A stretch of DNA of 53,968 nt, from contig CAUYUJ010000277.1 of NCBI GenBank assembly GCA_963575745.1, forward strand, positions 62,001 to 115,968, read 5' to 3'. Below are positions 17,111-49,498 of this stretch, in pieces (the first letter of the stretch is position 1; every line of letters begins with the position of its first letter). The notes under the pieces are model-generated. The model worked only from the letters and a program-made list of their open reading frames with translations. It ran no database searches and was not told the origin of the DNA. The position numbers and the translations under genes were made by a program. This stretch comes from Prorocentrum cordatum. Taxonomy: Eukaryota.

Positions 17111-18945
17111 GGGCTAATTCAGCCAGAATCTGAACTGGGTCCGGCGGTGAACCGTCAACCTAGTCACCGCCGCGAGCCTCGTAGAGCTCAGCTTGGTAAG
17201 AATGCAGAGAATCGGAGTAGAGTCATAAAATCTAGATTTTTTGAAAATCTGGATTTTCGATTTTTGCGATGTTCATATTCGCTCAATTCCCGGAAGTCAA
17301 CTCATAAGAAAATGCATCAGGAGAGCTGAGCTGCTGTCAGAAAGGAGTTTATATTCCAATGCCGCGCAAAAATCTGTTTTCTCAAAATAAATGGTTAAAT
17401 ATCTTTGAAATTCTCGCAAAACCGACCAAAAGTCACCAATTTGTCCGCCCCAGCCGGGTGGGCCAACTGGGCGCCGGCGGTAAACCGTTAACCTTCTTTA
17501 CCGCCGGGGGACTCGTAGAGCTTCCTGAGAACGAATTGTGTTTCAGCCCAGAGAACGCCCCCGATGCTTCTGAATTGTCTTCTGTTCGAGCTCTGTAGCT
17601 TTCCTGCAGCACGAGTTACGTGCGAAAATCGACAGCACCTCTAAAGATGACTCGAACAGTACGAATAGTTCGGCAAACCTAGCTCGAATATCAGACCGAG
17701 TTCAGAGCTCTGGAATCGACAGGCGGACGCACCTGATGTCTCCAAATCAATTCCTATGATTACCAGCCCTGCAGCCCCCCTGCAGCCCGAGTTAATTGCA
17801 GAAAACCGACAGCTCTCAGGATGACTCCAACAATACGAAAAGTTTCGCGGACCTAGTTCGGGCAGCAGACCGAGTTTCGAGCTCTGGATTCGACCAACGG
17901 ACGCAGCTGATGTCTCTAAATCGATTCCTGTGACTACCAGGTGGCCCCCCTGCAGTCCGAGTTAATTACAGAAAACCGGCAGCACCTCTCAATATGACTC
18001 GAAGAATACGAATAGTTTCGCGATTCTAGATCGGGCAGCAGACCGAGTTCAGAGCTCTGTATTCAACAAACGAACGCGACTGATGATTCCGAATCGGTTT
18101 CTGTGAGTATCAGCTCTGTATCTGTCGTACTCGAGTTAAGTACAGAAAACCGAGAGCGTCTGTCAAGATAACTCGAATAGGTTTGCGAATCTAGCTCGGC
18201 TAGCAGACCGAGTTCAGACCTCTCGATCCGACAGGCAAACGCACCTGAACATTCTGAATTGATAAGCTGTGCTTACCAGCTCTGTAGCTGTCCTGTATCT
18301 CGAGTTTAGTCCAATATACCGAGAGCGCGTATCAAGATGACTTGAAACGGTCGATCCCGCCTGCCTGCTTTTTGGCAGTAATACGTACCCGATCGAGCTG
18401 AGATCAAGATGGCGAGCAGAAATAATATCGAATATCATGGGAAAAAAACTAGAGCTCAAACGAATTCTTGAATTTCGAGAACAAAACTGGCGCCGGCGGC
18501 GAACCGTCAATCTGGTCACCGCCGGGAACGTCGCAGAGCTCTTTCCACGCGTGAGAGAGCTCAGAGTCGGACGAGAGAGCTTCTAGAGGCATCTCTCGAA
18601 AAATTGAACATTCATTTTTGTTCATGTCGACATAAAGTTGGTTCCCCCAAGTGTTTTGATAGTGAATGTGCGCCTAACGAGCTCATAATAAGACGCAGAG
18701 GCCCTCATAGTCGTTTACAAGTGCGAAGAATCTGGTTTCTCAAAATGAATTGTCGAATATTTTTGAAATCTTTGCAAAACCGACCCAAAGTCAGCACATT
18801 ATCTCTTTTCGTCGGGTCGGCCAACTAGCTCCACCCCGCGCCGGAATTCCTCTAGCTCATCGATGCCGAAGATCTTTAAAAGAATTCTTGAATTTCGAGA
18901 ACAAAATTTTCAACCGACCAAAAGTCACCAAAAGGTCCGTCGAGA

Positions 18946-20166
18946 CTGGGCGCCGGCGGTAAACCGTCAACCTTTCTTACCGCCGGGGGACTCGTAGAGC
19001 TTCCTGACAATATATAATACCGAAAAAACATGTAGAGACCGAACAGTTTTTCAGCCCAAGCGATTTCAGACCTTTCGATGCAACAGCCGAACGCCCCTGA
19101 TGATGGATTGTCTTCTACACGAGCTCTGTAGCTCTCCTACAGCCCGACTTACGTGCGTAAATCGACAGCGCCTTTCAAGATGACTCGAACAATACGAATA
19201 GTTCGGCAAACCTAGCTCGAGTATCAGACCGAGTTCAGACCTCTGAATGCAATAGTGGGGCGCGTCTGATGTCCCCGAATTGATTCCTGCGATTACCAGC
19301 CCTGCAGCCACCCTGCAGCCCGAGTTAAGTGCAGAAAACCGACAGCGACTCTCAAGATCACTCGAACAATACGAATAGTTTTGCGGACCTAGCTCGGGCA
19401 GCAGACCGAGTTCCAAGCTCTGGGTTCAACAGAAGAACGCGCCTGATGCCTCCGAATCGATCCATGAGATTACCAGCACGATAGTTTCCCTACAGCCTGA
19501 GTGAAGTACAGAAAACCGACAGCACCTCTCAAGATGACTCGAACAATACAAATAGTTTCGCAATTCTAGATCGGGCAGCAGACCGAGTTCAGAGCTCTGG
19601 ATTGAGCAAACACCGCGACTGATGATTATAAATCAGTTTCTGTAAGTATCAGCTCTGTAGCTGTCGTATAGCTCGAGTTAAGTACAAAAAACCGAGAGCG
19701 CCTGTCAAGATGACTCGAATAATACGAATAGGTTTGCGCACCTAGCTCGGCTAGCAGACCGAGTTCAGACCTCTGAATGGAACAGGCGAACGCGCCTGAT
19801 CATTCTGCATCGATGAGGTGTGCTTACCAGCTCTCTGGCTCTTCTATAGCTCGAGTTATGTTCAGAAAACCGCCACTGCGTGTCAACATAACCCGAAACA
19901 GCCGATCCCGCCGCAGTGCTTTTTGGCAGTAATATCTACCCGATCGATCTGAGATCAAGACGGCGAGCTGAAATAAGATCGAATATCACGGGAAAAAATA
20001 CTAGAGCTGAAACGAATTGAGGAATTTCGAGAACAAAATTTTCAACCGACCAAAAGTCACCAAAAGGTCCGTCGAGATGTTTCTTGCCAACTAGCTAGCT
20101 CTCCAGCGCCCCGGAATTACTCTTAAGCTTCCAGCGATCACTTGCTAGGGGAAGCTCTACGAGTTA
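18946..20166 (-). mobile_element. Full-length family B rolling-circle-like element (~1.2 kb, internal 177-bp repeats)
   Basis: Inverted pair ACTCGTAGAGCTTCC / GGAAGCTCTACGAGT; flanks cgaga | tatttcttgcc rejoin to the family B consensus. Confidence 0.75.
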
Positions 20167-21829
20167 TATTTCTTGCCAACTAGCTCTCCAGCGCCCCGGA
20201 ATTACTGGCGCCGACAGTGAACCGTCAACCTGGTCACCGCCGGGAACCTCGTAGAGCTCCTAACACGCGTAAGAGTGCTCAGCATCAAAAGAGGAGGCTT
20301 CTGGAAGCATTTCTCGAAAAAGAGAAAACATGATATTTTTCATGTCGACATAAAGTTGGTTTCGCCAAGTGTTTTGATAGTAAAAATGCATCTAGAGAGC
20401 TCATATTAAGAAGCAGAGGCCCTCATAGTCGTCTACAGGTGCGAAAAATCTGCTTTCTAAAAATAAAAGGACAAATATCTTTCAAAAAATCGCAAAACCA
20501 CCCAAAAGTTGTCACTTTGTCCGTCGGGGCCGGGTCGGCCAACTAGCTCGACCCCGCGCCGGAATTCCTCTAGCTCATCGACTGGGCGCCGGCGGTAAAC
20601 CGTCAACCTGGTCACCGCCGGGGACCTCGTAGAGCTCTTTTCTTGCCCAGCTCCTCGGAACACGTGAAGCAAGCGTAAGCGAGAGCCGAAAAACTCTAAA
20701 AAATCGATCGCATACAAATAGCTTTGCGGACTTAGCTCGAGAAGCAGACACTGTTCAGAGCTGTAGATGCTTCAGCCGAACGCCCTTGATGATTCTGTAT
20801 CGGTTTCTGCGCGTACCACCTCTGTAGCTGTGCTACAGCTAAAGTTAAGTGCAGAATACCGACAGCGCCTCTAAAGAGAACTTGAGAAATACGAATAGTG
20901 TTGTGGACCTAGCTCGACTAGCAGAACGATTTCAGGCCTCTCGATGCAACAGACGCAAGCGCCTGGTGATACTGAATCAGTTTCTGTGCGCATCAGCACT
21001 GTAGCTTCTCTGAATCTTGAGTTCAGTACAGAAAACCGGCATCACTGGTGAAGATGACTTTTACGGACCTAGCTCGAGTAGCAGACCGAGGTCAAACCTC
21101 TGGATGCAACAGGCGAACGCGCCTGATCATTCTGAATCGGTTTCTGTAAGCATCAGCTCTGTAGCTCTCGAAATCTCGAGTTAAATACAGAAAACACTGA
21201 ACGCGTGTCAAGATGACTCGGAACGCAGTTGGTTCCAGCAAGTCGTTTGATAGTAATATTGCAGCTACGGACCTGAGAATTTAACTGGCAGTCGCGGCAT
21301 AACCCACTACACGTGAGAAAAATACCGGTTCTCAAAATAAATTGTCAAATATATTCCAAATCAAAGCAAAACCGACCCAAGGTTATCACATTGTCTCTTT
21401 TGGTCAGGTCGGCCAACTAGCTCCACCCCGCGCCGGAATTCCTCTAGCTCATCGACGCCGAAGAGCTCTTCGAGGTATTTTTGGACTGCCAACGTGAAGT
21501 CGGCCCCTGGCTTTGCTCGGGAGAATTTCTCCACGGAATGAACTGAGAATGTGCGAGGTAACTTCTGTAATGCCAAGCTTCCCTCTCCGCAAATAGCAGC
21601 CCAAACGAATTATTAGAACTGCAAAATCGGCTGAGCCAGGCCGCGGAAGGTACGATCGCGTCCCTTTTCGACATTTCACCAACTAGCCCACCCTGTCGCC
21701 GAATTCCTCTAGCTCTTCTACCTTCAGAGCTCTACGAGGCATGACGAGGTACTCTTAAGCTTCCAGCAATCTTGGTTGGGTGTTGGGGTCGGCTACACAG
21801 GGCGCGCGCGCCCTAGCCGTGCAGAGCCC

Positions 21830-24800
21830 CTAGGGCCCCTCACGCCCTCTCAACCTCTTTGGGGTTGGAGGCCCGAGGACCTCAGAGATAATCTGCCGAA
21901 CACCTTGGAGCAGGCGCTCACAAGCTGTGAGCTCGCTATCTGTAACAGTGGCCCTCAGAGGGAGTAAAGAAGCCTCCTGGAAAACTCGTCGCCAGTGGTT
22001 GTCCCCAAATGAGACCTCCACATAGCAACCTAGAGCAGAGCCTTCAACACTCACGCCACCGTCCCATCCTCCACGGATACGTTTGATACAATGTCTCTGT
22101 TGTCGTAAATATCTGAAGTCAATCCATCTTCCCGTCCTTCCCCTCCTCGCCTCCCAAGTCAACTCATCCGCAACACAATTGAACTCTCTGTAGATATGCT
22201 TCCACGGATCCGTCCCTACAGTGGCACACCTGATGTCGTAATCCTCCGCCAGTTGATTCATATCGTTTTGTAGACCATGCACTCTCCTGCGGTACGAACG
22301 ATCACGGCATTCCCAGATCCCTCGGGCCCAGTTCACCACACACATACTATCACCTGTCATTTCAACCAACAATGAGCTCTCCGAGCCCTCCTGCCAGACA
22401 GCTTCGTTGTTATATCCGTGGGCAATCCTACGAGCGAGCCTGTCGGAGTCCTCAGGGGAGTCCCACGTATCCACAGGGCAAGGAGCACAGGGCGGTTTCC
22501 TGAAGATGGGCTCCCATCGAGGCTGTATTTTTGTCATGCACGCAACTACATTCCACCAGTCCGTCGCATTCCACTTGATGCTGAACCAGCGTAAATTACC
22601 ACTCGCCGCCAGCATAAGACAATGCCAGCTGTCAGTGCTTGCATGCGCTCTCCCTCCCACTCTCCTCGTACCTTCCCTCCTCCTGGCTCCCGTGAACATG
22701 GATACAAGTGTGCCCCTCCGTAGTGACCATTCCCCCGCACAGTGTAACATGGCCTGACGCGTCTGACGCCAGGCTCGTGCCCCACGCATGTCCGTGGAGG
22801 CGATGGCCCGATCATGAAACTGGGCCAGCTCCAACGCAAACTCGAAATTGGCCCGGACCACCTTCTCTAGGAGACTGCAGTGGCCAGCCTGCAAGAATAG
22901 CTCGTATGACTTCGGTGTGGTCCTGTCCCTGAACTCCTCCCACGTCTCCTCCTCCCTCTTGTGTAATCCTCGCATACCGTTGAGACACCTCCCCTCCCAG
23001 ACCTTAATCCTCTCCAGCAGTCGTAGATTGCACGGCCAGCCTATACATCCGTGGTACACCACAGACTGCACACGAGCGGCATACCTGCGAAACTTCTCTT
23101 TGAGTGAGACCGATCTGGAGCGATAAAACTGGATGTCAGCAAAATAGGCCTTCCTCCCTTTCTCCAGTCGATGATACAAGCCGTGATATCCCTTGATTTC
23201 CGAGCTGAGCTTCACTCCTAGTACCTCCACCTCCTCCTTCCTCGGCATTACGACAGTCGAGCGCAAGTGCTCTGGGAGATCCTCATCTCCAGAAATCGCA
23301 CAGATGGCTGGCGAGAGCGGGCAGAGCAGCGGCGGATCGCCACATGTGTACGTCTGGCCAAAAAGTACATACGCCAGAGAGTCCTCCTTCCAGTCCATCC
23401 CTGCCCGTCTGAGTGTTACCGTCATCATACCGATCATCTGTTGTAGCTGGAGCTGCGATGCAGCACAGAGCGTAACATTGTCCGCCCACAAGAAGTGGTG
23501 TACAAGAGCGCCGTCCGTCCCCTCCCCTTCCAGTCGGACACCGTATCCTAATGTATCCCAAGTCTGAATCACAGATCCCCAGATGGCCTCCAAGACAATA
23601 TTGAAAAGTATGGGTCCCTCCTTACCTCCCGTTCGGACCGATTTATTGTACCTCACCTCATCGCCGCACACGTTCTGAAACTCAAAGGTAGCAATGTTAT
23701 CCAGCATGGGCTCCACAATGGCTCTTATGAGGCACACAGGGTACTTAAGATACAGCATGGCCATGATGATAGTGTGCAGTGTGACATTATCGAAAGCTTT
23801 GTGTATGTCCAAGACTCCCACGTGCATAGACTCCGCCTTCCCCCACACATTTGCATGTCTAGTAAGATGTGATAGTGGTGCCGTGACGTTAGTAACCTTC
23901 TGATCCTTCTCAAATCCGTATGTGCACAACCGTCGGTTCACAGGAAATGCATCAATAAACTGCAACACACATGCCATGTACCATTTACTCATCACACTGA
24001 TCAGGCAAATCCCTCTGGTGTTGGAGAGTCGTGTAGCATCCCGCATCTTCGGCACAAGTTGGATACTGAGCTGCCTCCACGTCTCAGGGCTGGAGGCTCC
24101 CTGCTCGAAAATCCTCTGGAAAGCACGCCGCACAAACAAGAGGCTCCTCCACGGCAGCTCACGAATGACCTCAGCAACGACTCCATCGCTACCGGGTGCC
24201 GTGCCAGGCTTCAAAGACGCACGACCCTGCATGAGCATGCCCATCGCGATGACTCTTCCCTCCACCCCACGGTCGTTGTGTCTGAGTTCCTGAGAGGCCT
24301 CCAAAGTCCGTTTTTCCTCCTCCGAGTTCGTGTAAGACGCCGTCGCATACCTAGTGATCTCCGTACTCCACCTAGTCCTGTCCATTGTCAGCACACCCTC
24401 ACACTCCAGCTCCTTGAGGATACACCGTGAGGTCTTACTGGATCCCCTGTGGTCCTGCAGGAATTGGTTCCTCCTATGCTGTCTCCTAAGGGTCTTCCTC
24501 CTACGCAGCAGTTGTTTACGAGTATTCCCAAGGGCCCCACGCCTGATGGCAGACTCCACCTCTATGAGCTCCCTGGGCCTCTGAATGGGTTTGCAGTTGG
24601 GGCGCCCCTTAGTGTGGTCCACAAGCTCTGCCGTCTCCAAGAGTACCCGTCCGACCTGCTGCAGGTCCGCCCCTACCGTGTCCGATGCAAGCCCCTCAAT
24701 CGACACATCCGCAAGCACACGAAACATGTTCCTCGCCGTGTCATCCGTCGGCTGCCAGCCAACCATGGACACAGGGCGGGGTGGCAAAGCTGGGCGCCTG

Positions 24801-25612
24801 ATCTCCGTCGTCTTGAGATTTACCCAGACCAGGGCGTGATCACTATAGGCACTGGCTTTTGCACGTATACCTGGCGTAGCTTTGATGGGTTCCACAAACT
24901 GGACCTGGCATCTCATTTCCTGGTGAGCTCTTGCCTCATCCGCGCACCAACGTGTAGGGATGAGCATATAGTCAAGCACACGCTGCACATGTGTGGAACA
25001 GTACGGTATGTGTGTGATACGTCGGTCTCCATATGTGTTCGCCGCACAGATCCCCCAAGTACTCATGAACCTCATAAGCATGTCCCTCCTCTCTGCATGG
25101 TAGTTCGCCTCCTCCCTCCTCCCGTCCACCTGCATAAGACCTCCTCCCGTCATTCCCAGCATATCTGGTTCAAGTTCCGTCTGAGCATCCATCCCCACCC
25201 ATGGTATGACTCCAGCCTGTGTAGTTTGAAACATAGTAACACTGCACTTAGTAAGTACATCTAAGTATTCCCCCAAGTGGTCAACATCACGCATCACGCA
25301 TGGTAGATACACTGATGCAACTAGAGCACCCCTGAATTCGACACACGCAAATCGTACCCCACTCCGTCGAGCAATCACATGTGGTGCCCAATCCCTGCAC
25401 CATGCAACCGCCGCCTTGGAGCAGGAGCTATAGTGAATCTCCCATCCACATCTGTTAAAAGTATTTGCACTGGTATGCTCACACTCTTGCAGACACACCA
25501 TTTGAATTGACCTGGCTTCACATGCAGCGACCAGGTTGGGTACTTGACCGTCGGATATTTTCTGCACATTCCAGGTTGCGACCACGGTCTCTGTCGCAGC
25601 CCTACCGCCCCG
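21830..25612 (-). CDS. LINE ORF2: AP endonuclease + reverse transcriptase + permuted RNase H (no initiating ATG before the endonuclease)
   Basis: APE: ATWNV, CLQE, SVYLP, GMDAQ, LDY, SDH. RT: APGSDG, QLVPK, RGICL, LDIHKAFDNV, TGGKEGP, WADN, EVLG. RNase H: GDS, HIYREFN..AD, WDGG, TVTDSE. Confidence 0.93.
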   Translation of the reverse strand, partial: RGGRAATETVVATWNVQKISDGQVPNLVAACEARSIQMVCLQECEHTSANTFNRCGWEIHYSSCSKAAVAWCRDWAPHVIARRSGVRFACVEFRGALVASVYLPCVMRDVDHLGEYLDVLTKCSVTMFQTTQAGVIPWVGMDAQTELEPDMLGMTGGGLMQVDGRREEANYHAERRDMLMRFMSTWGICAANTYGDRRITHIPYCSTHVQRVLDYMLIPTRWCADEARAHQEMRCQVQFVEPIKATPGIRAKASAYSDHALVWVNLKTTEIRRPALPPRPVSMVGWQPTDDTARNMFRVLADVSIEGLASDTVGADLQQVGRVLLETAELVDHTKGRPNCKPIQRPRELIEVESAIRRGALGNTRKQLLRRRKTLRRQHRRNQFLQDHRGSSKTSRCILKELECEGVLTMDRTRWSTEITRYATASYTNSEEEKRTLEASQELRHNDRGVEGRVIAMGMLMQGRASLKPGTAPGSDGVVAEVIRELPWRSLLFVRRAFQRIFEQGASSPETWRQLSIQLVPKMRDATRLSNTRGICLISVMSKWYMACVLQFIDAFPVNRRLCTYGFEKDQKVTNVTAPLSHLTRHANVWGKAESMHVGVLDIHKAFDNVTLHTIIMAMLYLKYPVCLIRAIVEPMLDNIATFEFQNVCGDEVRYNKSVRTGGKEGPILFNIVLEAIWGSVIQTWDTLGYGVRLEGEGTDGALVHHFLWADNVTLCAASQLQLQQMIGMMTVTLRRAGMDWKEDSLAYVLFGQTYTCGDPPLLCPLSPAICAISGDEDLPEHLRSTVVMPRKEEVEVLGVKLSSEIKGYHGLYHRLEKGRKAYFADIQFYRSRSVSLKEKFRRYAARVQSVVYHGCIGWPCNLRLLERIKVWEGRCLNGMRGLHKREEETWEEFRDRTTPKSYELFLQAGHCSLLEKVVRANFEFALELAQFHDRAIASTDMRGARAWRQTRQAMLHCAGEWSLRRGTLVSMFTGARRREGTRRVGGRAHASTDSWHCLMLAASGNLRWFSIKWNATDWWNVVACMTKIQPRWEPIFRKPPCAPCPVDTWDSPEDSDRLARRIAHGYNNEAVWQEGSESSLLVEMTGDSMCVVNWARGIWECRDRSYRRRVHGLQNDMNQLAEDYDIRCATVGTDPWKHIYREFNCVADELTWEARRGRTGRWIDFRYLRQQRHCIKRIRGGWDGGVSVEGSALGCYVEVSFGDNHWRRVFQEASLLPLRATVTDSELTACERLLQGVRQIISEVLGPPTPKRLRGREGP

Positions 25613-26713
25613 TCAATGATTCGGGCACCGTAGTGTCTGAAGAAACTGCACCTGATTAATATCGGGCTCAACGTGTGTCAAATTATCACCATAGAGGTTC
25701 CATCCTTTTGTCGGTCCCCATTCTGCAATCAATGTCTTTTGTGTAGTATCATCAGCATTCGGCATATACCACATATATGTCATTGGCGGACCCGTCTCAC
25801 CTCGAAGAATACCCGTCGCATTTTTCTTGATATCAGAAAATAGTGCTTGAAACCGTCCTACCGCCCGAACATGTTCTATCTTCCATGGCTGGCATTCAAC
25901 TTGAAATCGCAAATTGGGAGGCAATGAAGTGAGTCCCCGCCTGTAGCCATTCTCCCACACACGTTTCGCTTCCCATAGGATCTCAGAGGATGTACCTGGC
26001 TTGAAATAGATCCTACCCCTCGTGTACGGCCAATATCTACCAGTATTCTCCTGAACCGTCCGATCCAAGTCCAGTGCCACCCTCTGTGTAGCATCAATTT
26101 GTTTAGAGTCAATGAGACCATTCATCGCCGTCGTCAGTGCCTCCTGTGAAAGAGCCTCCCGCTGACGTATCTCACGGTTCCTCCATCCCTCCCTTGAAAC
26201 CCACCCCTTGAACTCAACATAACGTGGATTCCAACCAGGGTCGTGCCTGTCCGTACCCGCCTTCGTGGATCCACTTGCTACCGACAGCCCGTCCCCCTGC
26301 TTGAGCTTCTGAACTTCATTGGTGAGGTCCTGGATCGCCGATTCTGTTTTTGATACCCTGGAGTCCAGAGATGTTTTCAGACCGTCCATTTCCGTGCGAC
26401 TAGAGTTCCTGAACGATTGCATGTCTGCCGTCATAGTCTGTTGTCCCGTCATGATGGATCGAAACATCTGTTCAATGTCAAGGCCAGCTTCCTGGGCAAC
26501 CTCATTCGCACCCAACGTTTGTCCCGCACCTCCTCCTTCTCCTTTCCCTCCTCCTTTGACATTACGAGCACGGACAGCTCTAGCAAACGCCCCACCCCCA
26601 TCATCAATTGTCATGTCCTGGCCCACCGCATGCAAGCCTGGAGCACCTGAAACTGAAGAACCTGCTGGCATCGCTGGTGCAGCACCTGAAACTGAAGAAC
26701 CTGCTGCAGCCAT
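25613..26713 (-). CDS. LINE ORF1 (predicted coiled coil followed by RRM-like region), ~366 aa from the first ATG
   Basis: First in-frame ATG at 26713 (AAG ATG GCT); heptad-like stretch MDGLKTSLDSRVSKTESAIQDLTNEVQKLK then RYVEFKGW; lies directly upstream of ORF2. The frame stays open to ~27349 without ATG. Confidence 0.75.
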   Translation of the reverse strand: MAAAGSSVSGAAPAMPAGSSVSGAPGLHAVGQDMTIDDGGGAFARAVRARNVKGGGKGEGGGAGQTLGANEVAQEAGLDIEQMFRSIMTGQQTMTADMQSFRNSSRTEMDGLKTSLDSRVSKTESAIQDLTNEVQKLKQGDGLSVASGSTKAGTDRHDPGWNPRYVEFKGWVSREGWRNREIRQREALSQEALTTAMNGLIDSKQIDATQRVALDLDRTVQENTGRYWPYTRGRIYFKPGTSSEILWEAKRVWENGYRRGLTSLPPNLRFQVECQPWKIEHVRAVGRFQALFSDIKKNATGILRGETGPPMTYMWYMPNADDTTQKTLIAEWGPTKGWNLYGDNLTHVEPDINQVQFLQTLRCPNH

Positions 26714-29700
26714 CTTCCCTTTGTGGCTGCGTAAGATATTGAAATCGTAACCTTCACCCTGCACGAAGTGGTTACGCAGGATATTGAAATCGTAACCTTC
26801 ACCCTGCACAAACGGTACTGTTGGTGTGAGCGATGGCACACAAATAACAGCTCTCCTGTCACCTCGAGGTGTCCCGACCTGTCTAGCAAGATAGTCCCAG
26901 TCCGCGTGACTGAAGTCGGATCCCCAGCACTCCGTCGTTCCAAGAGAGAGGAAAAGAGACAATTGCAGCAGTAGCAATAACAATAACAAGTGCAGGCGGC
27001 CTAGCACACACAATAACAATAACAAGTGCAGCGGCCTAGCTGACCTCGATCTCGCTGAACCCGAAGAAGACGAAGAAGGCAGCGATGGCTGCCGCGCCGC
27101 CCGCGGCGACGCACCCCCCTCCCACACGCTAGACGCCTGTGGGATCCAGACGCCTTGATCCAGACGCCTTGAGCCTTGGACGCCTTGGACGCCAGACGTG
27201 TGATCGAGGTACAGTGGTAGCGTCCAAAACCCGGAGAGCGAAGAGGCAACTCTGCAGAGCTTTCGCGCCGCGCTCTGGGGGGCTCTCCTGAAGCGCTTCT
27301 CAAGCGCTGCCTGGCACGCTTCCACGCGTGCCTGCACGCGTGCAGGCACGCGTGGACGCGTGCCGGAACCGCTCCCGGACGGGCTGCGACCTCCGGCGAG
27401 TCGCTGCGGGGATTCTGGAGCGGCGAAGATGGGCTGCTGGGAGGCACCACCACCGTCCGGCTTCTAATCTAAAACCCTATAGCTCTCAGAGAGCTCTCCG
27501 GGAACATTGTCTCTTTAGGTCGGGTCTGCCAACTGGGAGCCGGCGGTAAACCGTCAACCAGGTTAGCGCCGGGAGCCTCGTAGAGCTCTTCTTCTGGCGT
27601 GGAGTGCTCAGAACACACGGAGGTAGCTTTCTCAACCGTAAGCTGAAAAACTCTGAAAAAAAAACACGTTTTTCGGTTTTCATCCAAAGTCGGTCCCTTC
27701 AAATGTTTTGATAGTGATACTGGGCGCTGGCGGTAAACCGTCAACCTTTCTTACAGATGGGAAACTCGTAGAGCTTCCTTCCCATATATCTATATATATA
27801 TATGTGTCCAAATAATTACCAGAGAACGAATAGTTTTCAGCCCGAGCGCTGATAGCAGACTGATCTCAGGCGTCTAGTACCATTTCCAAGAAAGCGGTTC
27901 AGCCCAAGCGCTAACAGCAGACTCAGCGCGGGTGTCTAGATACATTTAAATAGCGCGCATGATGATTCTCTTTTCATTGCAATGCCTATGAGCTCTCAAG
28001 CTCATCTGCACCTCGAGCTCAGTCCAGAAAACGAATTCCATCACCAGAACAATAGCAGAGTATTTGTTTGGCGTCTGCGCTCATAACAGACCCAAGCCAA
28101 GCGTCCAGATACTTGAGACTGGCGCGCTTCATGACTTCCTTTTGATTTCTGTGCGGAAGAGCTCTGAAGCTCATCTGCCGATCGAGTTCAGTGAAGAATT
28201 GTACCAACATGTCGAAAAAATCGGTCGAATACGAATAGTTTTGCGGACCTAGCTCGAGTAGCAGACTGGGTTCAGAGCTCTAGATACTCCAGCCGAACGC
28301 GCCTGATTATTCTGAATTGATTACGTGCGCCTAAAAGCTCTGTAGCTATGCTACAGCTCGAGTTAAGTACAGAACACCGACAGTGCCTGTTAAGAGAACT
28401 CGAAGAATACGGATAGCGTCGCGGACCTAGCTCGAATAACAAACCGAGTTCAGACCTCTCGATGCAACAGACGAACGCGCCTGATGATTCTGAATCGATT
28501 CGTGCGCGCACCAGCTCTGTAGCTCTGCTACAGCCGAGTTAAGTACAGAAAACCGACAGCACCTGACAAGATGACTCGAAGAATACGACTAGTTTCGCGG
28601 ACCTAGCTCGAGTAGCAGACCGAGTTCAGACCTCTGGATGCAATAGACAAACGCGCCAAGTGTTTTGATAGTAATACTGGAGCTACGGACCTGAGAATTT
28701 CACTGGCGGGCGCGGCATAACCTACTACAGGTGCGAAAAAATACCCGTTCTCAAAACGAATGTTCAAATCTCTCACAATCTTCGTCCAACCGACCCAAAG
28801 TTCCCACTGGGTGCCGGCGGTAAACCGTCAACCTTGGTTACCGCCGGGGGACTCGTAGAGCTTCCTTACCATATACCATCTCTAAAGAATAAGCAGAGTA
28901 CGAATAGTTGTTCAGCCCGAGCGCTAATAGCAGACTGATTGCAGCCGTCTAGATACATTCAGTCAACCAGCACCTCTGACAATTTCCTTCCGATTGCTGT
29001 GCAGAACAGCCCTGTAGCTCATCTGCAGCGCGAGTTAGACCAAGAAAACCAATACCGTCTGCAAGAAATTAGCAGAGTACGAATAGGTGTTGTTCAGCCA
29101 GGGCGCTCATAGAAGTCTGACTTCAGGGGTCTAGGCACTATCAAATAGCGCGCCTCATGATTGTCTTCCGATTGCTCTGCCTCAGAGCTCGGGATCTCAT
29201 CTGCAACTCGAGCTTAGTCAGAAAAACCATTCCATCACCAGGATAAAAAAAAAATCTGAATAGTTGTTCGGCTTCTGTGCTGAGAACAGACCGAATCCAA
29301 GCGTCTGGACACTTCAGACTAGCGCGTCTGACAATTCCCTCCCGACTTCTGTGCGAAAGAGCAATGACGCTTGGATGCAGCTCGACTTCAGTCAAGCAAC
29401 TCACCATCATCTTGAAAAAAGTCGGTAGACTACGAATAGCTTCGCGAACCCAGCTCGAGTAGCAGACCGAGTTCAGACCTCTAGATGCTTCAGACAAACG
29501 CGCCTGATGATTCTGAATCGAGTGCGTGTGCGCGTCAGCTCTGTGGCCCTCCTACAGCTCGAGGTAAGTACAGAAAACCAACAGCAGCTGTCAAGAAAAT
29601 TCGTGCAATACGAATAGTTGTGCGGACCTAGCTCGAGTAGTGGACCGAGTTCAGACTTCTAGATGCTTCAGACGAATGCGCATGATGATTCTAAATCGAT

Positions 29701-32070
29701 TACGTGGCCGTACAAGCTATGTAGCTCTCCTAAAGTTCGAGTTAAGTACAGAAAACTGAGAGCACCTGTCAACGAATTTCGTGAATACGAATAGTTTTGC
29801 GGACCTGGCTGGGTTAATGGACCGAGTTCAGACCTCTACACGCCTGAGACGAGAACGCGTGTGATGGTTCTGAATCGATTACGAGGGCGCAGCAGCCCTG
29901 TAGCGCTCCTGCAGCTGTTAAGTACCGAAAACCGACAGCACCTGTCAAGGAAAGCGGTATAATACGAATAGTTTCGCGGATCTAGATCGAGTAGCAGACT
30001 GAGATCAGACCTCTAGATGCTTGAGATGAACGCGCCTGATGATTATGTATCGGTTTCTGTGAGCAACAGCTCTGTAGCTCTCCCACAGCTCGAATTAAGC
30101 ACAGAAACCCGACAACAGCTGTCGAGAAAATTCGTACAATACAAATAGTTTTGCGGATCTAGCTCGAGTAATGGACCAAGTTCAGAGCTCTAGATGCTTG
30201 AGATGAACGCGCCTCATGATTCTGCATCGGTTTCTGTCAGCACCAGCCTTGTAGCTCTCCTACAGCTCGATCTAAGTACAAAAAACCGACAACGCGTGTG
30301 AAGTTGACTCGAACCAGCCAATCCCGCCTGGATGCTCTTTGGCAGTAATAGGTCCCCGATCGAGCTGAGATTAAGACGGCGAGCGGCAATAAGATCGAAT
30401 ATGACGGTAGAAAATACTAGAGCTCAAACGGATTGTTGAATTTCGACAACATAATGGGATCCGGCGGTAAACCGTCAACCAGGTAACCGCCGGAAGCCTC
30501 GTAGAGCTCTTTTCTCGCGCGGGGCTGATCGGAACTCATGAAAGAAGCTTTCTCCAGATGAGCCAAGAAACTCGAAAAAAAACAGTTTTTCATTTTTTCC
30601 CGAAGTTGGTTCCCGCAATTCTTTTGATAGCAATATTGCAGCTACAAACCTGAGAATTGCACTGACAGACGCGACAGAACCCACTACAGACGTGACATCG
30701 ATTACGTGTGCGTACGAGCTCTACAGTTCTGCTACATCTCACGGTAAGTAAGGACAACTTACAGCGCCAATCTAGACAACCGGTACAATACAAATAGCTT
30801 CGCAGACCTAGCTCGAGTAGCAGACCGAATCCAGATGCTCAGACCCACCGCGCCTCTGGATGCTCCAGATGAGCGCGTCTGATACTTCTGAATCGGTTTC
30901 TGTTAATACCAGCTCTGTAGCTCCCCTACACCTCGAGTTACGCACAAAAACTAACAACGCCTGTCAAGATGACTCGAAACAGAACTCGGTTCCCTCAAGT
31001 CTTTCGATAATAATATTTCAGCTACGGACCTGAGAATTTCACAGCCGCGCGCGGAATAAACCACTACAGGTCAGAAAAATACCCGCTCTTAAAACGAACT
31101 TTCAAATTTTACACAGAGATACAACAACTGACCCAAAGCTATGACTCTTTACGTCGGGTCTGTCAACTAGCTCCACCCTGCGCCCGAATTCCTCTTAGCT
31201 CATCTTGCCGAAGAGCTCTACGAGGTACTGGACGCCGGCGGTAAACCGTCAACCTTGGCTACCGCCGCGGGACTCGTAGAGCTTCCTTGCCATATACCAT
31301 CTCCAAAGAATTAGCAGAGTACGAATAGTTGTTCAGCCCGAGCGTTAATAGCAGACTGATTGCAACCGTCTAGATACACTCAACTAGCAACAGCTGTCAA
31401 GAAAATTCGTACAATACGAACAGTTTTGCAGACATAGCTCGAATAGTGGACCGAGTTCAGACCTCTAGATGCTTCAGACGACGGCGTCTGATGATTCTGA
31501 ATCGGTTTCTGTGCGCACCAGCTCTGTAGCTCACCTACAGCTCGAGTTAAGTACGAAAAACGGATGGTATCTGTCAAGAGAATCGGTAGAATACGAATAG
31601 TTTCGCGGACCTACCTCGAGTAGTAGACCGAGTTGAGACCTCTAGATGCTTCAGACGACCGCGTGTGATGATTCTGAATCGGTTTCTGTGCGCACCAGCT
31701 CTGTAGCTCTCCTACAGATCGAGTTAAGCACAAAAAACAAACAGCAGATGTCAAGAAAATCAATAAAATACGAATAGTGTTGCAAACCTAGCTCGAGTAG
31801 CAGACTGAGTTCAGACCTCTAGATGCTTCGGATGAACGCGCCTGGTGATTCTAGATCGGTTTCTGTGAGTAGCAGCTCTGTAGCTCTCCTACAGCCCGAG
31901 TTAAGTACAGAAAACCGACGAAGAGAACTCGAACGATACAAATAGTTTCGCGGATCTAGCTCGAGTAGCAGACTGAGTTCAGATCTCTAGATGCAACAGA
32001 AGAACGCGCCTGATGAATCTGAATCGGTTTATGAGGGCACCAGCTGCGTAGCTCTCCTATAGCTCGAGTT

Positions 32071-33233
32071 TGGTGTTTGGTCAGGCTACACCAGGGCGCG
32101 CGCGCCCAAGCCTAAGGGCAAGAGCCAGTTAAATCCGTTTCCTCCGCTTTGCAAAGGAAATTTCTTTAACAATGTGCTCCACACCTGTGCACAGGCGCTC
32201 GGCAGCAGACAATTCTGCCTCCGTCACGGTGGAGCCGACATCAAACATGTAGGCTTCAGAGCACACGAGCGTCCACGGGCCATTCTCTGGAGCAACTTCA
32301 ATCCAGTGACCTCCTGCGGCACCCTCACTACTCACACCACCATCCCAACATCCTCTGATGTATTTGATGTTTGTCTTGTTCTGTTTGATGTAGTCGTGCT
32401 TGTATACTATGTAACAATTTCCTTCTCTCGCATGGTGTGTGTAAGCTCATCAGCATAGGCATTGGCTTCTCTATAGATGTGTTTTCAGCAATCCTTTCCG
32501 TGGGTCGGGCATCGTGTGTTGTATTGTTCACACATGTCGTACATGATATTTTGTATCCTGGCAATCCGTTTGGCATATCCACTGTTGTCACAAGCCCAGA
32601 CTCCCCTCAACCATTGTACCACCGTCCTACTGTCACCACACATTTCAATAGCAATCCCCTCCATTCCACGGTCCCATATTGTCGTTTGTTCGTGTATGAT
32701 TGCAAGCCGTCGGGCCAGCTCATCATTTGTCGGTACCTTCGCAAAGCCTCCGACCCTCACCTCCTCCTTCCTCCTCACAAACATGTCCTGCACTTTGGGT
32801 ATCTGTGATAGATGTTCCACAAACTCCTCCCAATCCGTCGGGACCACACACGTATCGCACCACAAGAGGGACCTCCATTTTTCAAAAAGGTGCATGCCAG
32901 CTTCCTGTCACGATCCTTGGTATGCCCCTGAGCCGTCTCGTTCCCTCCCTCGCTTTCGTCTGACTCACGGACGCCAGCATTGCATCCCTCTGCACCGTCC
33001 ATTCTCCCGATACATGCAGCATCGAGCGCAGCGTCTGCTGCCATGATTTGCTATACACCGTGGACGGCATGTGGCATTCATATTGGGATACTTCAACCGC
33101 AAATTCGAAGTTGTATCTCACGACTTTTTCCACCAACGTTTTGGATCCCCCTTCTTTGAACATCTCCCTGGACCTGTTGGTACTACGATCCCTGAACTCC
33201 GCCCACGTTTCCGTCTCTCTTCTGTGTAATCCT
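32071..33233 (-). mobile_element. 5'-truncated, decayed LINE of a related family (post-RT region + permuted RNase H)
   Basis: GLHRRETETWAEFRDR, IEMCGDSRTVVQW, KHIYREANAYADEL, YIRGCWDGG, STVTEAEL align to ORF2; two frameshifts and a TGA at the conserved W; same 3' hairpin. Confidence 0.9.
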
Positions 33234-34304
33234 GTCAAGATGACTCGAAACAGCACCTGTCAAGATGACTCGAAACAGCCGGTCCCGCCTGGATGCTTTT
33301 TGGCAGTAAAAGCTACCCGATCGAGCTCAGATTGAGACGGCGAGCGGGAATAAGATCGAATATCACGGGAAAAAATACTAGAGCTCAAACGAATGGTTGA
33401 ATTTCGAGAACATAACTGGGATCCGGCGGTAAACCGTCAACCAGGTAACCGCCGGGAGCCTCGTAGAGCTCTTTCTTGCGCGGCGGTGCTCGAAACAAAC
33501 GGAAAAAGCTTTCTCAAGCGCGAAGAAAAGAGCTCGAAAAATACGTTTTCCAACGTCGGTTCCCTCAAGTTTTTTGATAGTAAGATTGCATCTACGGACC
33601 TGAGAATTGGACTGGCAGACGTGGCGTAACCCACTACACGTGAGAAAAAAAATGATTTCTCAAAATGAATTGTCAAATATCTTTCAAATCTCAGCAGAAC
33701 CGACCCCAAGTCACCACATTGTCTCTCAAGGTCTGATCTGCCAACTAGCTCCACCCTGCGTCCGAATTCCTCTTATTCTATCCAAAAAATTAGCAGAGGA
33801 CAAATAGTTGTTTCAGCCCGAGCGCTGATAGCAGATGATCTCAGGCGTCTAGATACATTTCACTATTGCCCCTGATGCTCTGTCGCTCATCTGCAGCGCG
33901 AGTGAAACCAAGAAGAACAATACAATTTCCAAGAAAGTAGCACAGTACGAATCAGTGTTCGGCCCTAGCGCTAATAGTAGACTCAGCGTGGGTGTCTAGA
34001 TACTTTCAAATAGCGCGCATCTTCATCATTTCCCCATTGCAATGCCTAAGAGCTCTCAAGCTCATCTGCACCTCGAATTCACACCAGGAACGAATTCCAT
34101 CACCAGAAAAAAAAAAAGAGAACATGACTAGTTGTGCGGCGTCTGCGCTCATAAAAGACTTAAGCCGAGCGTCTAGATACTTCAGACTAGCGCACCGCAG
34201 AATGTTCTTCGGATTTCTGTGCGGAAGAGCTCTGAAGCCCATATGCAGATCGAGTTAAGCGAAGAAATTCATCGCTATTTCGAGAGGGAGAGAGAGAGAG
34301 GGGG

Positions 34305-34399
<95 letters not shown>

Positions 34400-38559: not shown

Positions 38560-40677
38560 TTTTTTGTTGCGTCTTTGCTGGGACCGTCCTGGCCACTGAG
38601 GCCAGGTCCAACGAAGTCTCAGGCGAATCAGAGCCTCTTATTCGTCACGCAAGCAGTCAACTCTTATTTCACATCAGCGAAGCTGTTAGAATAAAGAGAA
38701 TAAAAACCAGCAATGACACAATCAATCGCAAAACACACAAATGATAAACGAAGAGCAAATAAACAGCGAAGCTGTTAGAATAAACAAGAAGACAACATAT
38801 GATATGAAACAATGTGCGACTTATCACTGCGAATGATCAAAGAAGGTCTGTACAACCTGTGGGGGCACATCACATATGCGCTCCGCCACTGATAACTCCG
38901 CATCTGCGACCGTGGCACTTGGTGGCAGACACCAAGCCGCAAGATACACATCCTTGAAAGTGATGTCGGTCCGCGAGAAGATATACTTGTTACGCAGACC
39001 TATCTGTATCCACACGCCACAGGCCCTTCCGCGGCTACAAACACCCCCATCAAAGCCAGCTCTGATAAGGCAAGGAGTAAAACACTGAGATTCGAAATCA
39101 CTGAGGTAAAAGAAATCGGCTTACATATGGCCCTGACGGGCCTGATGGGTCAGTAAGTCAGCCCTCTGGTTCCATTCCCGAAAAGACTGAGAGAAGAAGT
39201 CACGGCCAGCCTCTGGAGGCCTCACCGAGTCAGCATCCTGCATCTCGTCCAACTTATTTTTCAGAGTGTCCACCCTTTTCTGATATACCTGAGCTGATAC
39301 TTTCCATTTCCCACAGAGCCAGTTAATCACTAGCAACGAGTCCCCCTGGATGTCCAGTGCTATCCCATCCGTTTCGAGGTCCCACTGTGTGCAAAGCATG
39401 CTATGCAGCGCGATACGTTTGCTAAGTCGATCCCTATATGCTGGTGTATCCTCCCGATCTTGACCAATATGAACCCCTCCATCCTCATCCATATTCAAGA
39501 ACACAGGAACCCCTGAGGACGCCAAGCCTTTGCATTTCTTCTGGAAATACTTCAACATACTACTAGAACAAACGCGCGCAGCGAAATCCATGAAATGTTC
39601 AAAGCTTCCAACAAAGAACTCCCACCAGGATAAACCATAAAACGATTCCAAAGAATAATACCAAGAACGAAGCCCTACACTCTCCTGTCCCCCACGATGT
39701 CGTTTCAGTGACCTAGCCCCCTTGGATTTCCCCCAACATCTGAGAGCCTCGCTCGAATCTGTCCTCGTTCTATCCCACAGCCGGCCAAACGCCAGGCATG
39801 AGAAACGAGACTCTCTCCAAGCTCTTGTCGAGTTCGCCTCCAGCGCCTCCTGATCTGCGATCAACCTCTGGGCAAAATCGCGGACGTCGATTGCCCACAT
39901 CCAGTGCACTCTGAGAAACTTCTGTACAATACCCACATAATGTGCATCATGGAACTTCTGTCTCGCACGTTCATACCTCCTCGTATTCCACTCCTGATAA
40001 CTTTCCTCCTCCCTCCGTACACAACGAAACATGACAGCCAGGCACTTACCCTCAAAGATATGAAGGGCACTCAATGAACTAGAGTCGACGGTGCATCCTT
40101 CCGCCGCGCGGAGAACAATACTCTGAACCCTCTGCGCATACCTCTCATACTTATCTTTCAGCGGAATGGCCGTGGAGCGGAAAAAGGACGCCTGGCCCCA
40201 GAACGCCCTACGAGCAGAGTCAACACTAGCATCCAGATCTGGATGCTCATTTACATGTAGTTCAGAACAAATATGAGCCCCAAGCACCTCCATCTCCGTC
40301 ACTCTTCTGAATCGATACATTCCCGAATCCTCCGACCCAATCGAGAGAACAAGATCAGCAGTTCGGAATATTTCCCCTTCCGCATCACGCGGAGGCGCAG
40401 CACCGAACACCATGTACAATAGACTGGACTCCTTCCATCTCATACCATAGTCATGTAAGTGTGTAGTCAGACCGTGTAACATGCGCGTGAGTTCCTCCCG
40501 ACTCCGAGCCAGAACATGACAGTTGTCCGCCCAGAGGAAGTGATTAATAACCGAAATACAGCTAGTCGAGCCTGTAGCAAACTCAATACGATAACCTAGC
40601 CCTAGCACGTCCCATTCTCGAACCGTGGAACTCCACATAGCGGCAACAATAAGATTGAAAGCCAATGGTCCCTCATA
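38560..40677 (-). mobile_element. 5'-truncated LINE of a third, more divergent family (RT C-half + permuted RNase H)
   Basis: EGPLAFN, HFLWADN, MEVLG, IQGDSLLVINW, FREWNQRADLL; after one in-frame TAA (39121-39123) IRAGFDGG and ATVADAEL; A-rich tail at 38560-38570. Confidence 0.9.
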
Positions 40678-48859: not shown

Positions 48860-49467
48860 CGCGCACGCACATGCGCGCGCACGCGAATACATACACAATC
48901 TCACGCGCGCACGCACTCACAACCACGCGCGCTCACTCGCGCGCGGGCACCCCCTCACGCACACACACACACACACGCACACACACACACACACACGCAC
49001 AAGCACACACACACACACGCACCAAAAAACACACACACACACGCGCGCGCATACAGACACGAACACAGACACAGACACAGACACACCCGCACGCACACGC
49101 ACACACACACACACACAGACGCGGCCACACACACGCACACACACACACACACCTGCCTGCCAGACAAACACACACAAACGCAAACATCTACAGATACAGA
49201 CGGACCGACGCCTTCGCACTCACAAACCGATCCCCCGCTGCTCAGCGCTCTCGTTCCCCCGCGAAATCCTCGCGCCCCCGCGCACCCCGCCCCCCCCCCC
49301 CTTCCCGCCGGCGCTCCGGAGGGGGGAGGCACCGCCCCATGTCGGGGCCGGCCCTCCCTCCACTCCAACCACTCCGCCCTCGCGGAGCGCTGAGGGGGGG
49401 GGGTGGAGAGGGGGGGGGGGGGCGCGGGCGGCGCCTGCACCGCGCGCGCACACGCACACAAACGCAG

Positions 49468-49498
<31 letters not shown>

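What the first reader, a model, noticed from the sequence alone, without database searches (positions are those of the whole stretch)
21890..22375. Circularly permuted RNase H at the C-terminus of LINE ORF2, conserved in three divergent families
Seen: ORF2 ends with VEMTGDSMCVVNW...WKHIYREFNCVADEL and only afterwards IRGGWDGGVS..SALG...ATVTDSELTAC. Established: in RNase HI (archaeal/plant-type DEDD) the order is D1 (xFDG) - E (TNNxAE) - D2 (GDS) - D3 (RExNxxAD). Here the order is D2-D3-D1-E, so the halves are swapped. The same swapped order with all four acidic residues occurs in copy 2 (32129-32650: CGDS, REANAYAD, WDGG, TVTEAE) and copy 3 (38824-39360: QGDS, REWNQRAD, FDGG, TVADAE), although their other sequence is very different. 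Inference: this is an old, selected, naturally permuted RNase H that defines this LINE lineage. I know of no description of it but could not check the literature.
Basis: partly seen in the sequence, partly recalled or inferred. Interest (0 to 1): 0.9.

Follow-up and report, generated by a model that had tools for sequence, protein, structure and literature searches.

The report
Circularly permuted RNase H in LINEs
The last domain of this jumping gene's main protein is an RNase H enzyme whose two halves are encoded in swapped order, a natural rearrangement shared by over a hundred distant relatives and missed by standard domain annotation.

Summary
The observation and the reading both hold. ORF2 of a LINE (window 21830-25612, minus strand, 1260 aa open) ends in a ~175-aa domain ordered GDS (D40) - RExNxxAD (R94, D101) - 21-aa linker - WDGG (D136) - TVTDSE (E179). 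A 45-sequence family profile hits solved archaeal-type RNase H1 (4e19, E=5.8e-10) as two stretches in inverted order. hhalign against canonical RVT_3-type RNase H gives two separate inverted alignments. After the two column blocks are swapped in a script, it gives one 128-column alignment (E=2.9e-27).

Of 149 database relatives, 111 carry both halves, all in the permuted order and none in the canonical order. No D1/E half lies upstream of GDS in any of 37 proteins with at least 100 upstream residues. AlphaFold2 gives one compact domain (pLDDT 93.1 and 94.8 for two members about 21% identical). Its elements run β4-αB-αD-β5-αE-linker-β1-β2-β3-αA.

The window holds exactly three copies, 32-48% identical. 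Only copy 1 is intact. I could not obtain model coordinates, so clustering of the four acidic residues is inferred, not measured. Nine full-text searches found no description. Verdict: a new variant of a known kind.

The parts
21830..25612 (-). LINE ORF2, copy 1, open for 1260 aa including the stop at 21830-21832
   Evidence: Pfam RVT_1 on residues 529-801, E=1.1e-12. Nearest solved RTs are R2Bm 8gh6 (E=5.7e-9) and human L1 ORF2p (about 2e-7).
23210..24028 (-). Reverse transcriptase core (RVT_1 match, ORF2 residues 529-801)
   Evidence: coordinates computed from the residue numbers
22412..22456 (-). Extra N-terminal helix before the domain (PEDSDRLARRIAHGY). It occurs only in the closer subfamily and is absent from P0114.
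   Evidence: AF2 helix H5-19 at pLDDT about 80. The alignment shows it is not conserved in the distant subfamily. The P0114 model folds without it.
22145..22393 (-). Permuted RNase H, first-encoded half. It equals the canonical C-terminal half (β4-αB-αD-β5-αE) and carries D2 (D40, GDS), the aRNH-type Arg (R94) and D3 (D101).
   Evidence: HMM h1 match 22136-22384, i-E 3.5e-32. hhalign to canonical template columns 99-189, 99.5%. RVT_3 profile positions 63-119, E=0.095-0.17, below threshold. SSE.
22082..22144 (-). 21-residue linker joining the old C-terminus (end of αE) to the old N-terminus (start of β1). It is modelled as a short strand plus a short helix.
   Evidence: AF2 E113-116 and H118-123, pLDDT above 94
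21875..22081 (-). Permuted RNase H, second-encoded half. It equals the canonical N-terminal half (β1-β2-β3-αA) and carries D1 (D136, WDGG) and E (E179, TDSEL).
32162..32661 (-). Copy 2 of the permuted RNase H (half 1 at 32422-32661, half 2 at 32162-32374). It is broken by an in-frame stop in half 1 and a frameshift in the linker.
38848..39375 (-). Copy 3 of the permuted RNase H (half 1 at 39130-39375, half 2 at 38848-39075). The halves share a frame, interrupted by TAA at 39121-39123 in the linker.
25613..27463 (-). Upstream ORF1-like frame (616 aa) ending in TGA at 25613-25615, in the same frame as ORF2

Best explanation
The C-terminal domain of this LINE's ORF2 protein is a natural circular permutant of an archaeal-type (aRNH, Pfam RVT_3-like) type 1 RNase H. 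The chain starts at what is normally strand β4. It runs through αB, αD, β5 and αE (carrying D2, the aRNH arginine and D3), then crosses a ~21-residue linker that joins the ancestral C- and N-termini. It then makes β1-β2-β3-αA (carrying D1 and E) and ends where the canonical αA-β4 loop would be.

Shown here: the inverted order of homology, its universality in the family, the conservation of D-E-D-R-D, and a confident single-domain prediction with the matching order of elements.

Inferred: the halves reassemble the ordinary five-stranded RNase H sheet with one DEDD metal site. The domain would then degrade the RNA template of the RNA:DNA hybrid made during target-primed reverse transcription, as RNase H domains of other LINEs are thought to do.

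Inferred more weakly: the permutation arose from a tandem (dual) RNase H by loss of the outer halves. It changes the point at which the nuclease is tethered to the RT.
For: (1) Profile of 45 family members against PDB sequences. 4e19_A (Halobacterium RNase H1) scores E=5.8e-10 in two stretches in inverted order that abut in the target (64-128 and 134-197). 3aly, 2ehg and 3u3g show the same two-stretch pattern; 4h8k and 3hst are also hit, each listed with a single stretch on the C-terminal half.
(2) hhalign against 19 canonical RVT_3/RNase_H proteins. Native order gives two inverted local alignments (99.5% and 89.7%). After swapping the column blocks there is a single 128-column alignment, 99.7%, E=2.9e-27.
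(3) Of 149 relatives, 111 have both halves, all permuted and 0 canonical. The 30 with half 1 only all end within 59 residues after it.
(4) No upstream D1/E half in 37 of 37 proteins.
(5) Invariant G39 D40 S41 R94 N97 A100 D101 D136 G137, and E179 in at least 90%, among 45 sequences 21-37% identical to the window's. All four acidic residues are present in 79 of 91 unique sequences; 7 of the 12 misses are N-terminal truncations. R94 is kept in 88 of 91. It matches the D-E-D-R-D signature that PMC5348765 and PMC4640811 (passages read) give for archaeal-like RNase H.
(6) AF2 gives pLDDT 93.1, pTM 0.88 for the window's domain and 94.8, 0.90 for P0114 (21% identical). Both have the same element order.
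(7) Half-domain superpositions on solved RNase H. Window model 128-197 on 4e19 67-133 (rmsd 2.7 A over 65). Window model 21-113 on 3u3g 24-140. P0114 model 2-83 on 4e19 129-199 (3.4 A over 71, 25% identity).
(8) The domain follows an RVT_1 match in P0001 and in six other proteins from separate clusters.
Against: No coordinates were available, so the distances between D40, D101, D136 and E179 and the strand order of the sheet were not measured.

The D1/E half is the weaker link. It scores 14.7 bits (i-E 0.13) against 4e19 and 93.5% in hhalign. Pfam on 10 natural fragments holding that half gave no RVT_3 N-half match in any of them. The window's own protein is below Pfam's RVT_3 threshold (12.3-13.1 against 21.6 bits).

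The two AF2 runs share most of their alignment rows, so they are not independent. No enzymatic or expression data exist. Two of the three window copies are dead.
Confidence: 0.85

Rival explanations
1. The domain is a permuted RNase H fold that has lost catalysis. It would serve only as a structural or nucleic-acid-binding module, like the degenerate 'connection/tether' RNase H of retroviruses.
For: No activity data. The window protein scores below Pfam thresholds. Many LINEs do without their own RNase H (PMC5348765, background passage read).
Against: D-E-D-R-D is kept at 88-89 of 91 positions, apart from truncations, at 27.8% mean identity. PMC5348765 (figure legend read) states that the degenerate RNH of Tat, Chronos and Archon elements does not conserve D-E-D-D.
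Confidence: 0.1
2. These are two tandem partial RNase H remnants: the tail of one copy followed by the head of a second. They would not fold together, and the order is an accident of decay.
For: A tandem 'dual' RNase H exists in LTR elements and retroviruses (PMC5348765 and PMC4408406, passages and listing). In the closer subfamily a helix sits just before β4, where αA would be. A greedy hhalign places it on αA.
Against: That placement has zero posterior confidence. No upstream D1/E half in 37 of 37 proteins. All 111 two-half relatives have exactly one of each half with a short linker. All catalytic residues are conserved. AF2 gives one domain at pTM 0.88-0.90. P0114 folds without the upstream helix.
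Confidence: 0.04
3. The order is an assembly, rearrangement or frame artefact peculiar to this window.
For: Copies 2 and 3 do carry stops or a frameshift near the junction.
Against: Copy 1 is one uninterrupted frame. The same order occurs in 111 database proteins from several sources (ENA, NCBI, JGI, Logan, EukProt).
Confidence: 0.01

Closest known systems
Archaeal-type (aRNH) RNase H domains at the C-terminus of ORF2 in plant Ta11/L1 and oomycete L1 LINEs, and upstream of RT in oomycete Utopia (PMC5348765 and PMC4640811, passages read; Smyshlyaev et al. 2013 is known to me only through their citations)
   Same: A type 1 RNase H of the Arg-bearing D-E-D-R-D kind, appended to a LINE RT at the end of ORF2. 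The best sequence matches are the same solved proteins those papers use as aRNH references (Sulfolobus tokodaii 3aly).
   Different: Those domains are described in the canonical order D-E-D-R-D. Here the order is D-R-D-[linker]-D-E in all 111 two-half relatives. I noticed no CCHC motif upstream of the domain, but did not search for one. The hosts appear to be aquatic protists: two EukProt labels and DNA holders in marine, freshwater and estuary metagenomes.
Cellular archaeal/bacterial RNase HI of the RVT_3 type (Halobacterium 4e19, Sulfolobus 3aly/2ehg, LC11 3u3g, 4h8k, Rv2228c 3hst)
   Same: Profile-level homology over the whole catalytic core (E=5.8e-10 to 9.5e-5). Shared GDSxLVxxW...G.W and HxYRExNxxAD motifs.
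   Different: Circular permutation, fusion to a LINE RT, and an added 21-residue linker.
SymbioLINE elements of Symbiodinium (PMC5890265, passages read)
   Same: LINEs of a marine alveolate alga with an ORF1 and an ORF2, described as lacking poly-A tails. One family member here carries a dinoflagellate EukProt label (Karenia brevis).
   Different: That paper lists only Exo_endo_phos and RVT_1 in ORF2 and a DNMT in ORF1. Pfam found no DNMT in this window's ORF1. Whether SymbioLINEs carry the permuted domain was not tested, and I did not establish the window's organism.
'Dual' RNase H of retroviruses and of Tat, Chronos and Archon LTR elements
   Same: A possible ancestral state: two RNase H units in tandem next to an RT, followed by decay of part of the pair.
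   Different: In those elements one whole unit degenerates and the other stays canonical. Here one half of each would have been lost, leaving a single permuted unit. No tandem intermediate was found.

Membership tests
Type 1 RNase H, archaeal-like subgroup (aRNH; Pfam RVT_3 PF13456) | Four catalytic carboxylates D-E-D-D | tested here: met
   D136, E179, D40 and D101 are present in the window's copy 1. Each is kept in 84-89 of 91 unique relatives, and all four together in 79 of 91.
Type 1 RNase H, archaeal-like subgroup (aRNH; Pfam RVT_3 PF13456) | Arg instead of His at the fifth conserved position (D-E-D-R-D), as PMC5348765 and PMC4640811 define aRNH | tested here: met
   R94 of YREFN is kept in 88 of 91. 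It aligns with R of HIYRExN in canonical RVT_3 proteins.
Type 1 RNase H, archaeal-like subgroup (aRNH; Pfam RVT_3 PF13456) | Significant profile similarity over both halves of the domain | tested here: met
   Family profile against 4e19: E=5.8e-10, two stretches. hhalign: 99.5% and 89.7% (93.5% for the half alone), and 99.7% over 128 columns after reordering.
Type 1 RNase H, archaeal-like subgroup (aRNH; Pfam RVT_3 PF13456) | Pfam gathering score for RVT_3 (21.6 bits) reached by the window's own protein | tested here: not met
   12.3-13.1 bits, E=0.095-0.17, C-half only. 37 of 45 family members match RVT_3 at E<=1. P0103 reaches 28.4 bits with two stretches.
Type 1 RNase H, archaeal-like subgroup (aRNH; Pfam RVT_3 PF13456) | Canonical chain order β1-β2-β3-αA-β4-αB-αD-β5-αE | tested here: not met
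   The order here is β4-αB-αD-β5-αE-linker-β1-β2-β3-αA. It is therefore filed as a permuted variant, not an ordinary member.
Type 1 RNase H, archaeal-like subgroup (aRNH; Pfam RVT_3 PF13456) | RNase H three-dimensional fold with the carboxylates clustered | tested here: inconclusive
Type 1 RNase H, archaeal-like subgroup (aRNH; Pfam RVT_3 PF13456) | Metal-dependent cleavage of RNA in RNA:DNA hybrids | not testable with these tools
   Needs a biochemical assay.
Non-LTR (LINE) retrotransposon ORF2 | Non-LTR-type reverse transcriptase | tested here: met
   RVT_1 E=1.1e-12. The nearest solved chains are R2Bm and human L1 ORF2p.
Non-LTR (LINE) retrotransposon ORF2 | N-terminal apurinic-like endonuclease | tested here: inconclusive
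   Pfam gives no Exo_endo_phos match at E<=10 on the whole ORF2, nor at E<=1 on its first 300 aa. By eye the N-terminus has ATWNVQ, LQE and YSDHAL motifs that I recall as APE-like; this was not tested further.
Non-LTR (LINE) retrotransposon ORF2 | Assignment to a named LINE clade (L1, I group, etc.) by RT phylogeny | not tested
   No reference RT set was at hand. The PDB matches do not discriminate (R2 5.7e-9 against L1 1.6e-7).
Tandem / dual RNase H | A second D1/E half (or a whole unit) upstream of the GDS half | tested here: not met
   0 of 37 proteins with at least 100 upstream residues have one; the best upstream i-E is 0.85.

The most novel reading that the evidence does not exclude
A widespread clade of aquatic-protist LINEs carries a catalytically active, circularly permuted RNase H. 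It arose from a tandem 'dual' RNase H by loss of the two outer halves. The permutation moves the tether to the RT from β1 to β4 and so re-aims the nuclease site relative to the polymerase site, which would change where the RNA template is cut. Because profile libraries score only half of it, the domain has been missed in annotations of these abundant marine retroelements.
Probability: 0.3. Interest if true: 0.75.

Novelty: new variant of a known kind. Interest (0 to 1): 0.66.

Why it matters
RNase H is one of the best-studied folds in retroelement biology. Its gain, loss and duplication are used to reconstruct how LINEs, LTR elements and retroviruses evolved.

- **Protein evolution.** A natural, conserved circular permutant shows that the fold tolerates re-threading in nature. 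It offers a test case for the duplication-and-deletion route to permutation.
- **A clade marker.** The permuted order is a clean shared-derived character for one LINE clade.
- **An annotation blind spot.** Pfam reports only RVT_1 for this 1260-aa ORF2. Published domain maps of similar algal LINEs list no RNase H (PMC5890265, passages read).
- **An open mechanistic question.** The change in the tether point to the RT may alter the register of template cleavage.

Tried and rejected
- Foldseek against PDB. No RNase H among the listed matches; the top hits were PelC and HPF at TM 0.2-0.4. I take this as the expected failure of a sequential aligner on a permutant, not as evidence of a new fold.
- Word-indexed homologue searches with ORF2 residues 1040-1260 and with P0002 found nothing. 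Only the alignment query worked.
- phmmer of the single domain against PDB: 0 hits at E<=10.
- Pfam on 10 natural fragments holding the D1/E half (the first 10 proteins; in nine of them the GDS/β4 start of half 1 is missing). No RVT_3 N-half match in any; P0024 matched only its short D3 remnant.
- Mean-field DCA on 91 sequences (Neff 82). The top pairs were dominated by linker and gap columns and showed no clear β1-β4 pairing. Inconclusive, so not used.
- Idea that the helix before β4 is a vestigial αA from a first RNase H copy. A greedy hhalign puts it on αA, but with zero confidence. It is absent from the distant subfamily. Kept only as speculation.
- ESM Atlas. The nearest clusters are RVT_3 and RNase_H at 0.89-0.90 with 127-132 shared features. 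By the tool's own calibration this is a lead only.
- Expression. No RNA holder listed. I did not lay reads.
- No whole genome is held for the window. Cluster look-up gave no organism names. The scan's earlier notes held nothing on this.
- Literature. Nine full-text searches found no natural permuted RNase H in a retroelement. The 'permut' hits in PMC13524379 and PMC10830420 concern label shuffling and RT thumb helices. One search was badly posed (min_terms 1) and mostly wasted. The library lacks most subscription journals and Repbase Reports, so absence from print is not proven.
Full report
**1. What is in the sequence**

On the minus strand, 21830..25612 is a single open frame of 1260 aa. Pfam sees only a reverse transcriptase in it: RVT_1, residues 529-801, E=1.1e-12. 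The closest solved chains are the R2Bm RT (8gh6, E=5.7e-9) and human LINE-1 ORF2p (about 2e-7), so this is a non-LTR (LINE) ORF2.

- LLVEMTGDS (D40)
- HIYREFNCVAD (R94, D101)
- a 21-residue linker
- RGGWDGG (D136)
- ATVTDSEL (E179)

Residue numbers refer to the 212-aa stretch window:21833-22468:-, and the codon coordinates are.

A six-frame scan of the whole window used HMMs of the two halves. It finds exactly three loci, all on the minus strand, each with the GDS/RExNxxAD half encoded before the DGG/AEL half.
- Copy 1: 22136-22384 and 21881-22096, one frame, intact.
- Copy 2: 32422-32661 and 32162-32374. It has an in-frame stop inside the first half and a frameshift in the linker.
- Copy 3: 39130-39375 and 38848-39075. 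The halves share a frame, interrupted by TAA at 39121-39123.

The halves of the three copies are 32-48% identical to one another. They are diverged families, not recent duplicates.

**2. Is it more than chance, and is the order real?**

An exhaustive phmmer search of 1.84 billion cluster representatives with the last 261 aa returned 149 proteins at E<=1e-3, and 45 at E<=1e-10. I classified them with the two half-HMMs:
- 111 have both halves, all in the permuted order, and 0 in the canonical order.
- 30 have only the first half, and every one of these ends within 59 residues after it, so they are truncated.
- 6 have only the second half.
- 2 match neither.

I aligned 45 members that are 21-37% identical to the window's protein. 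G39, D40, S41, R94, N97, A100, D101, D136 and G137 are invariant, and E179 is at least 90% conserved.

A broader set of 91 unique sequences has a mean pairwise identity of 27.8%.
- D1, E and D3 are each kept in 89 of 91.
- D2 is kept in 84 of 91; the other 7 are gaps from N-terminal truncation.
- R94 is kept in 88 of 91.
- All four acids are present together in 79 of 91.

**3. Is it RNase H, and is it permuted rather than tandem?**

Single-sequence methods barely see the domain. phmmer against PDB gives nothing. Pfam RVT_3 scores 12-13 bits on the first-encoded half only, aligned to profile positions 63-119 of 123.

The family profile is decisive. Against PDB sequences it hits Halobacterium RNase H1 (4e19_A) at E=5.8e-10 with two stretches:
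- Profile 145-216 aligns to chain 64-128 (FDG...TNNxAE).
- Profile 57-131 aligns to chain 134-197 (GDS...RxxNxRAD).

The order is inverted and the two stretches abut in the target. The Sulfolobus tokodaii enzyme (3aly, 2ehg) and LC11 (3u3g) show the same two-stretch pattern. 4h8k and Rv2228c (3hst) are also hit, each listed with a single stretch on the C-terminal half.

I then aligned 19 canonical RVT_3/RNase_H proteins that the alignment search had returned. Their consensus is FDG - TNNxAE - GDSLLVINQ - HIYRExNxxAD. hhalign of the family against them gave the following.
- Native order, tool run: only the C-half aligned, 99.4%, E=7.4e-22.
- Native order with alternative alignments, script run: a first alignment to template columns 99-189 (99.5%) and a second, inverted one to columns 33-94 (89.7%, E=1.9e-6).
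- The D1/E half alone: 93.5%, E=2.4e-7.
- The two column blocks swapped inside the script: one 128-column alignment across template columns 33-162, 99.7%, E=2.9e-27, score 165.8 against 140.4.

I searched 37 proteins with at least 100 residues upstream of GDS. They include P0001, P0017 and P0039, each with more than 1000 upstream residues. I used the family's D1/E HMM and a canonical N-half HMM with all filters off. Every significant match lies downstream of the GDS half, and the best upstream match has i-E 0.85. Tandem partial domains are therefore not supported.

**4. Structure**

AlphaFold2 with the 45-row alignment gives mean pLDDT 93.1 and pTM 0.88. The elements, in order:
- E33-39, ending in GDS (β4)
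- H42-49 (αB)
- H57-77 (αD)
- E89-91 (β5)
- H98-108, carrying D101 (αE)
- a short strand and helix (the linker)
- E130-140, carrying D136 (β1)
- E143-153 (β2)
- E160-169 (β3)
- H175-198, carrying E179 (αA)

P0114 is 21% identical and begins four residues before β4. It gives the same order at pLDDT 94.8 and pTM 0.90. The helix seen before β4 in the window's protein is therefore not needed for the fold. The two runs share most of their alignment rows and are not independent.

- 4e19 residues 67-133 on window-model 128-197, rmsd 2.7 A over 65.
- 3u3g 24-140 on window-model 21-113, and 3aly 24-137 on window-model 22-113.
- 4e19 129-199 on P0114-model 2-83, rmsd 3.4 A over 71, 25% identity.

I could not obtain coordinates. 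The strand order of the sheet and the clustering of the four acids are inferred, not measured. This is the main gap.

**5. How it most likely works**

Shown: the homology, the inverted order, the conservation of D-E-D-R-D, and a single confident domain.

Inferred: the two halves rebuild the ordinary RNase H sheet and two-metal site. The 21-residue linker bridges the ancestral termini, and the new termini lie at the ancestral αA-β4 loop. As in other RNase H-bearing LINEs, the domain would remove the RNA template from the hybrid formed in target-primed reverse transcription. I put genuine permutation at about 0.85, and retained catalysis, given permutation, at about 0.85-0.9.

More speculative is an origin from a tandem RNase H by loss of the outer halves. 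The only hint is a helix just upstream of β4 in the closer subfamily. A greedy hhalign places it on αA, but with zero confidence. No intermediate was found.

**6. Comparison with what is known**

Passages read in PMC5348765 and PMC4640811 describe archaeal-like RNase H (aRNH), defined by Arg in D-E-D-R/H-D. It lies at the C-terminus of ORF2 in plant Ta11/L1 and oomycete L1, and upstream of RT in oomycete Utopia. They also list RNase H in the I group, Proto1 and Dualen/RandI. All are presented in canonical order.

The present domain meets the aRNH residue signature and the profile homology. It fails the canonical chain order and the Pfam gathering score, so I file it as a permuted variant of aRNH, not an ordinary member.

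PMC5890265 (passages read) maps ORF2 of Symbiodinium LINEs as Exo_endo_phos plus RVT_1, with no RNase H. One family member here bears a Karenia brevis EukProt label. A fragment 81% identical to the window's protein bears a Pyramimonas sp. label. Near-identical DNA occurs in marine, freshwater and estuary metagenome runs. I did not establish the host.

**7. Novelty**

Nine full-text searches found no natural circularly permuted RNase H in a retroelement. The library omits most subscription journals and Repbase Reports, and I saw no supplements, so this is absence of evidence only.

Circular permutation itself is a known evolutionary mode, and RNase H in LINEs is known. I therefore rate this a new variant of a known kind, with interest 0.66.

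Noticed in passing
window 25613-25615 (minus strand), with 25616-27463 upstream: A 616-aa ORF1-like frame and ORF2 are in the same frame, separated only by one TGA. The first endonuclease-like motif (VVATWNVQ) starts 11 codons after the stop. The first Met of ORF2 lies about 37 codons in, after that motif. ORF2 may therefore be made by stop-codon readthrough or reinitiation as an ORF1-ORF2 fusion. Pfam finds no domain in ORF1.
   Followed up: partly
window 17610-21123, 28180-32010, 34357-37578, 41645 onward: Blocks of a tandem repeat with a period of about 174-178 bp (41 copies of a 124-nt core, 60-95% identical) fill the DNA between the three LINE copies. The elements appear embedded in, or alternate with, a satellite-like array (family D20).
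   Followed up: no
window 48800-52000: A long CA/GCA-rich low-complexity tract with extreme strand skew (GC skew down to -0.51, AT skew up to +0.67). It generates many spurious long ORFs.
   Followed up: no
window 4539-6035 (minus strand): A Copia-type reverse transcriptase (Pfam RVT_2, E=4.2e-10) in a 498-aa frame. It is a second, unrelated retroelement in the window.
   Followed up: no
window 39121-39123: The only defect in copy 3's RNase H region is an in-frame TAA lying exactly in the linker between the two halves. This is most simply a decay mutation. Copy 2's frameshift also lies in the linker.
   Followed up: partly
window 21361-21609, 20457-20771, 33437-33772 (minus-strand frames): Short frames sharing the peptide-like string ...EEF(G/R)R(R/G)VELVGR(P/S)D...RQC(G)D(N)LGSVLL... 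recur downstream of copy 1 and near copy 2. This suggests a repeated non-coding unit, possibly a shared LINE 3' region or part of the satellite. No A-rich tail follows the ORF2 stop of copy 1.
   Followed up: no
whole ORF2, window 21830-25612: Standard Pfam annotation reports only RVT_1 for this 1260-aa protein. Neither the endonuclease nor the RNase H reaches reporting level. Elements of this kind will be under-annotated in genome surveys.
   Followed up: yes
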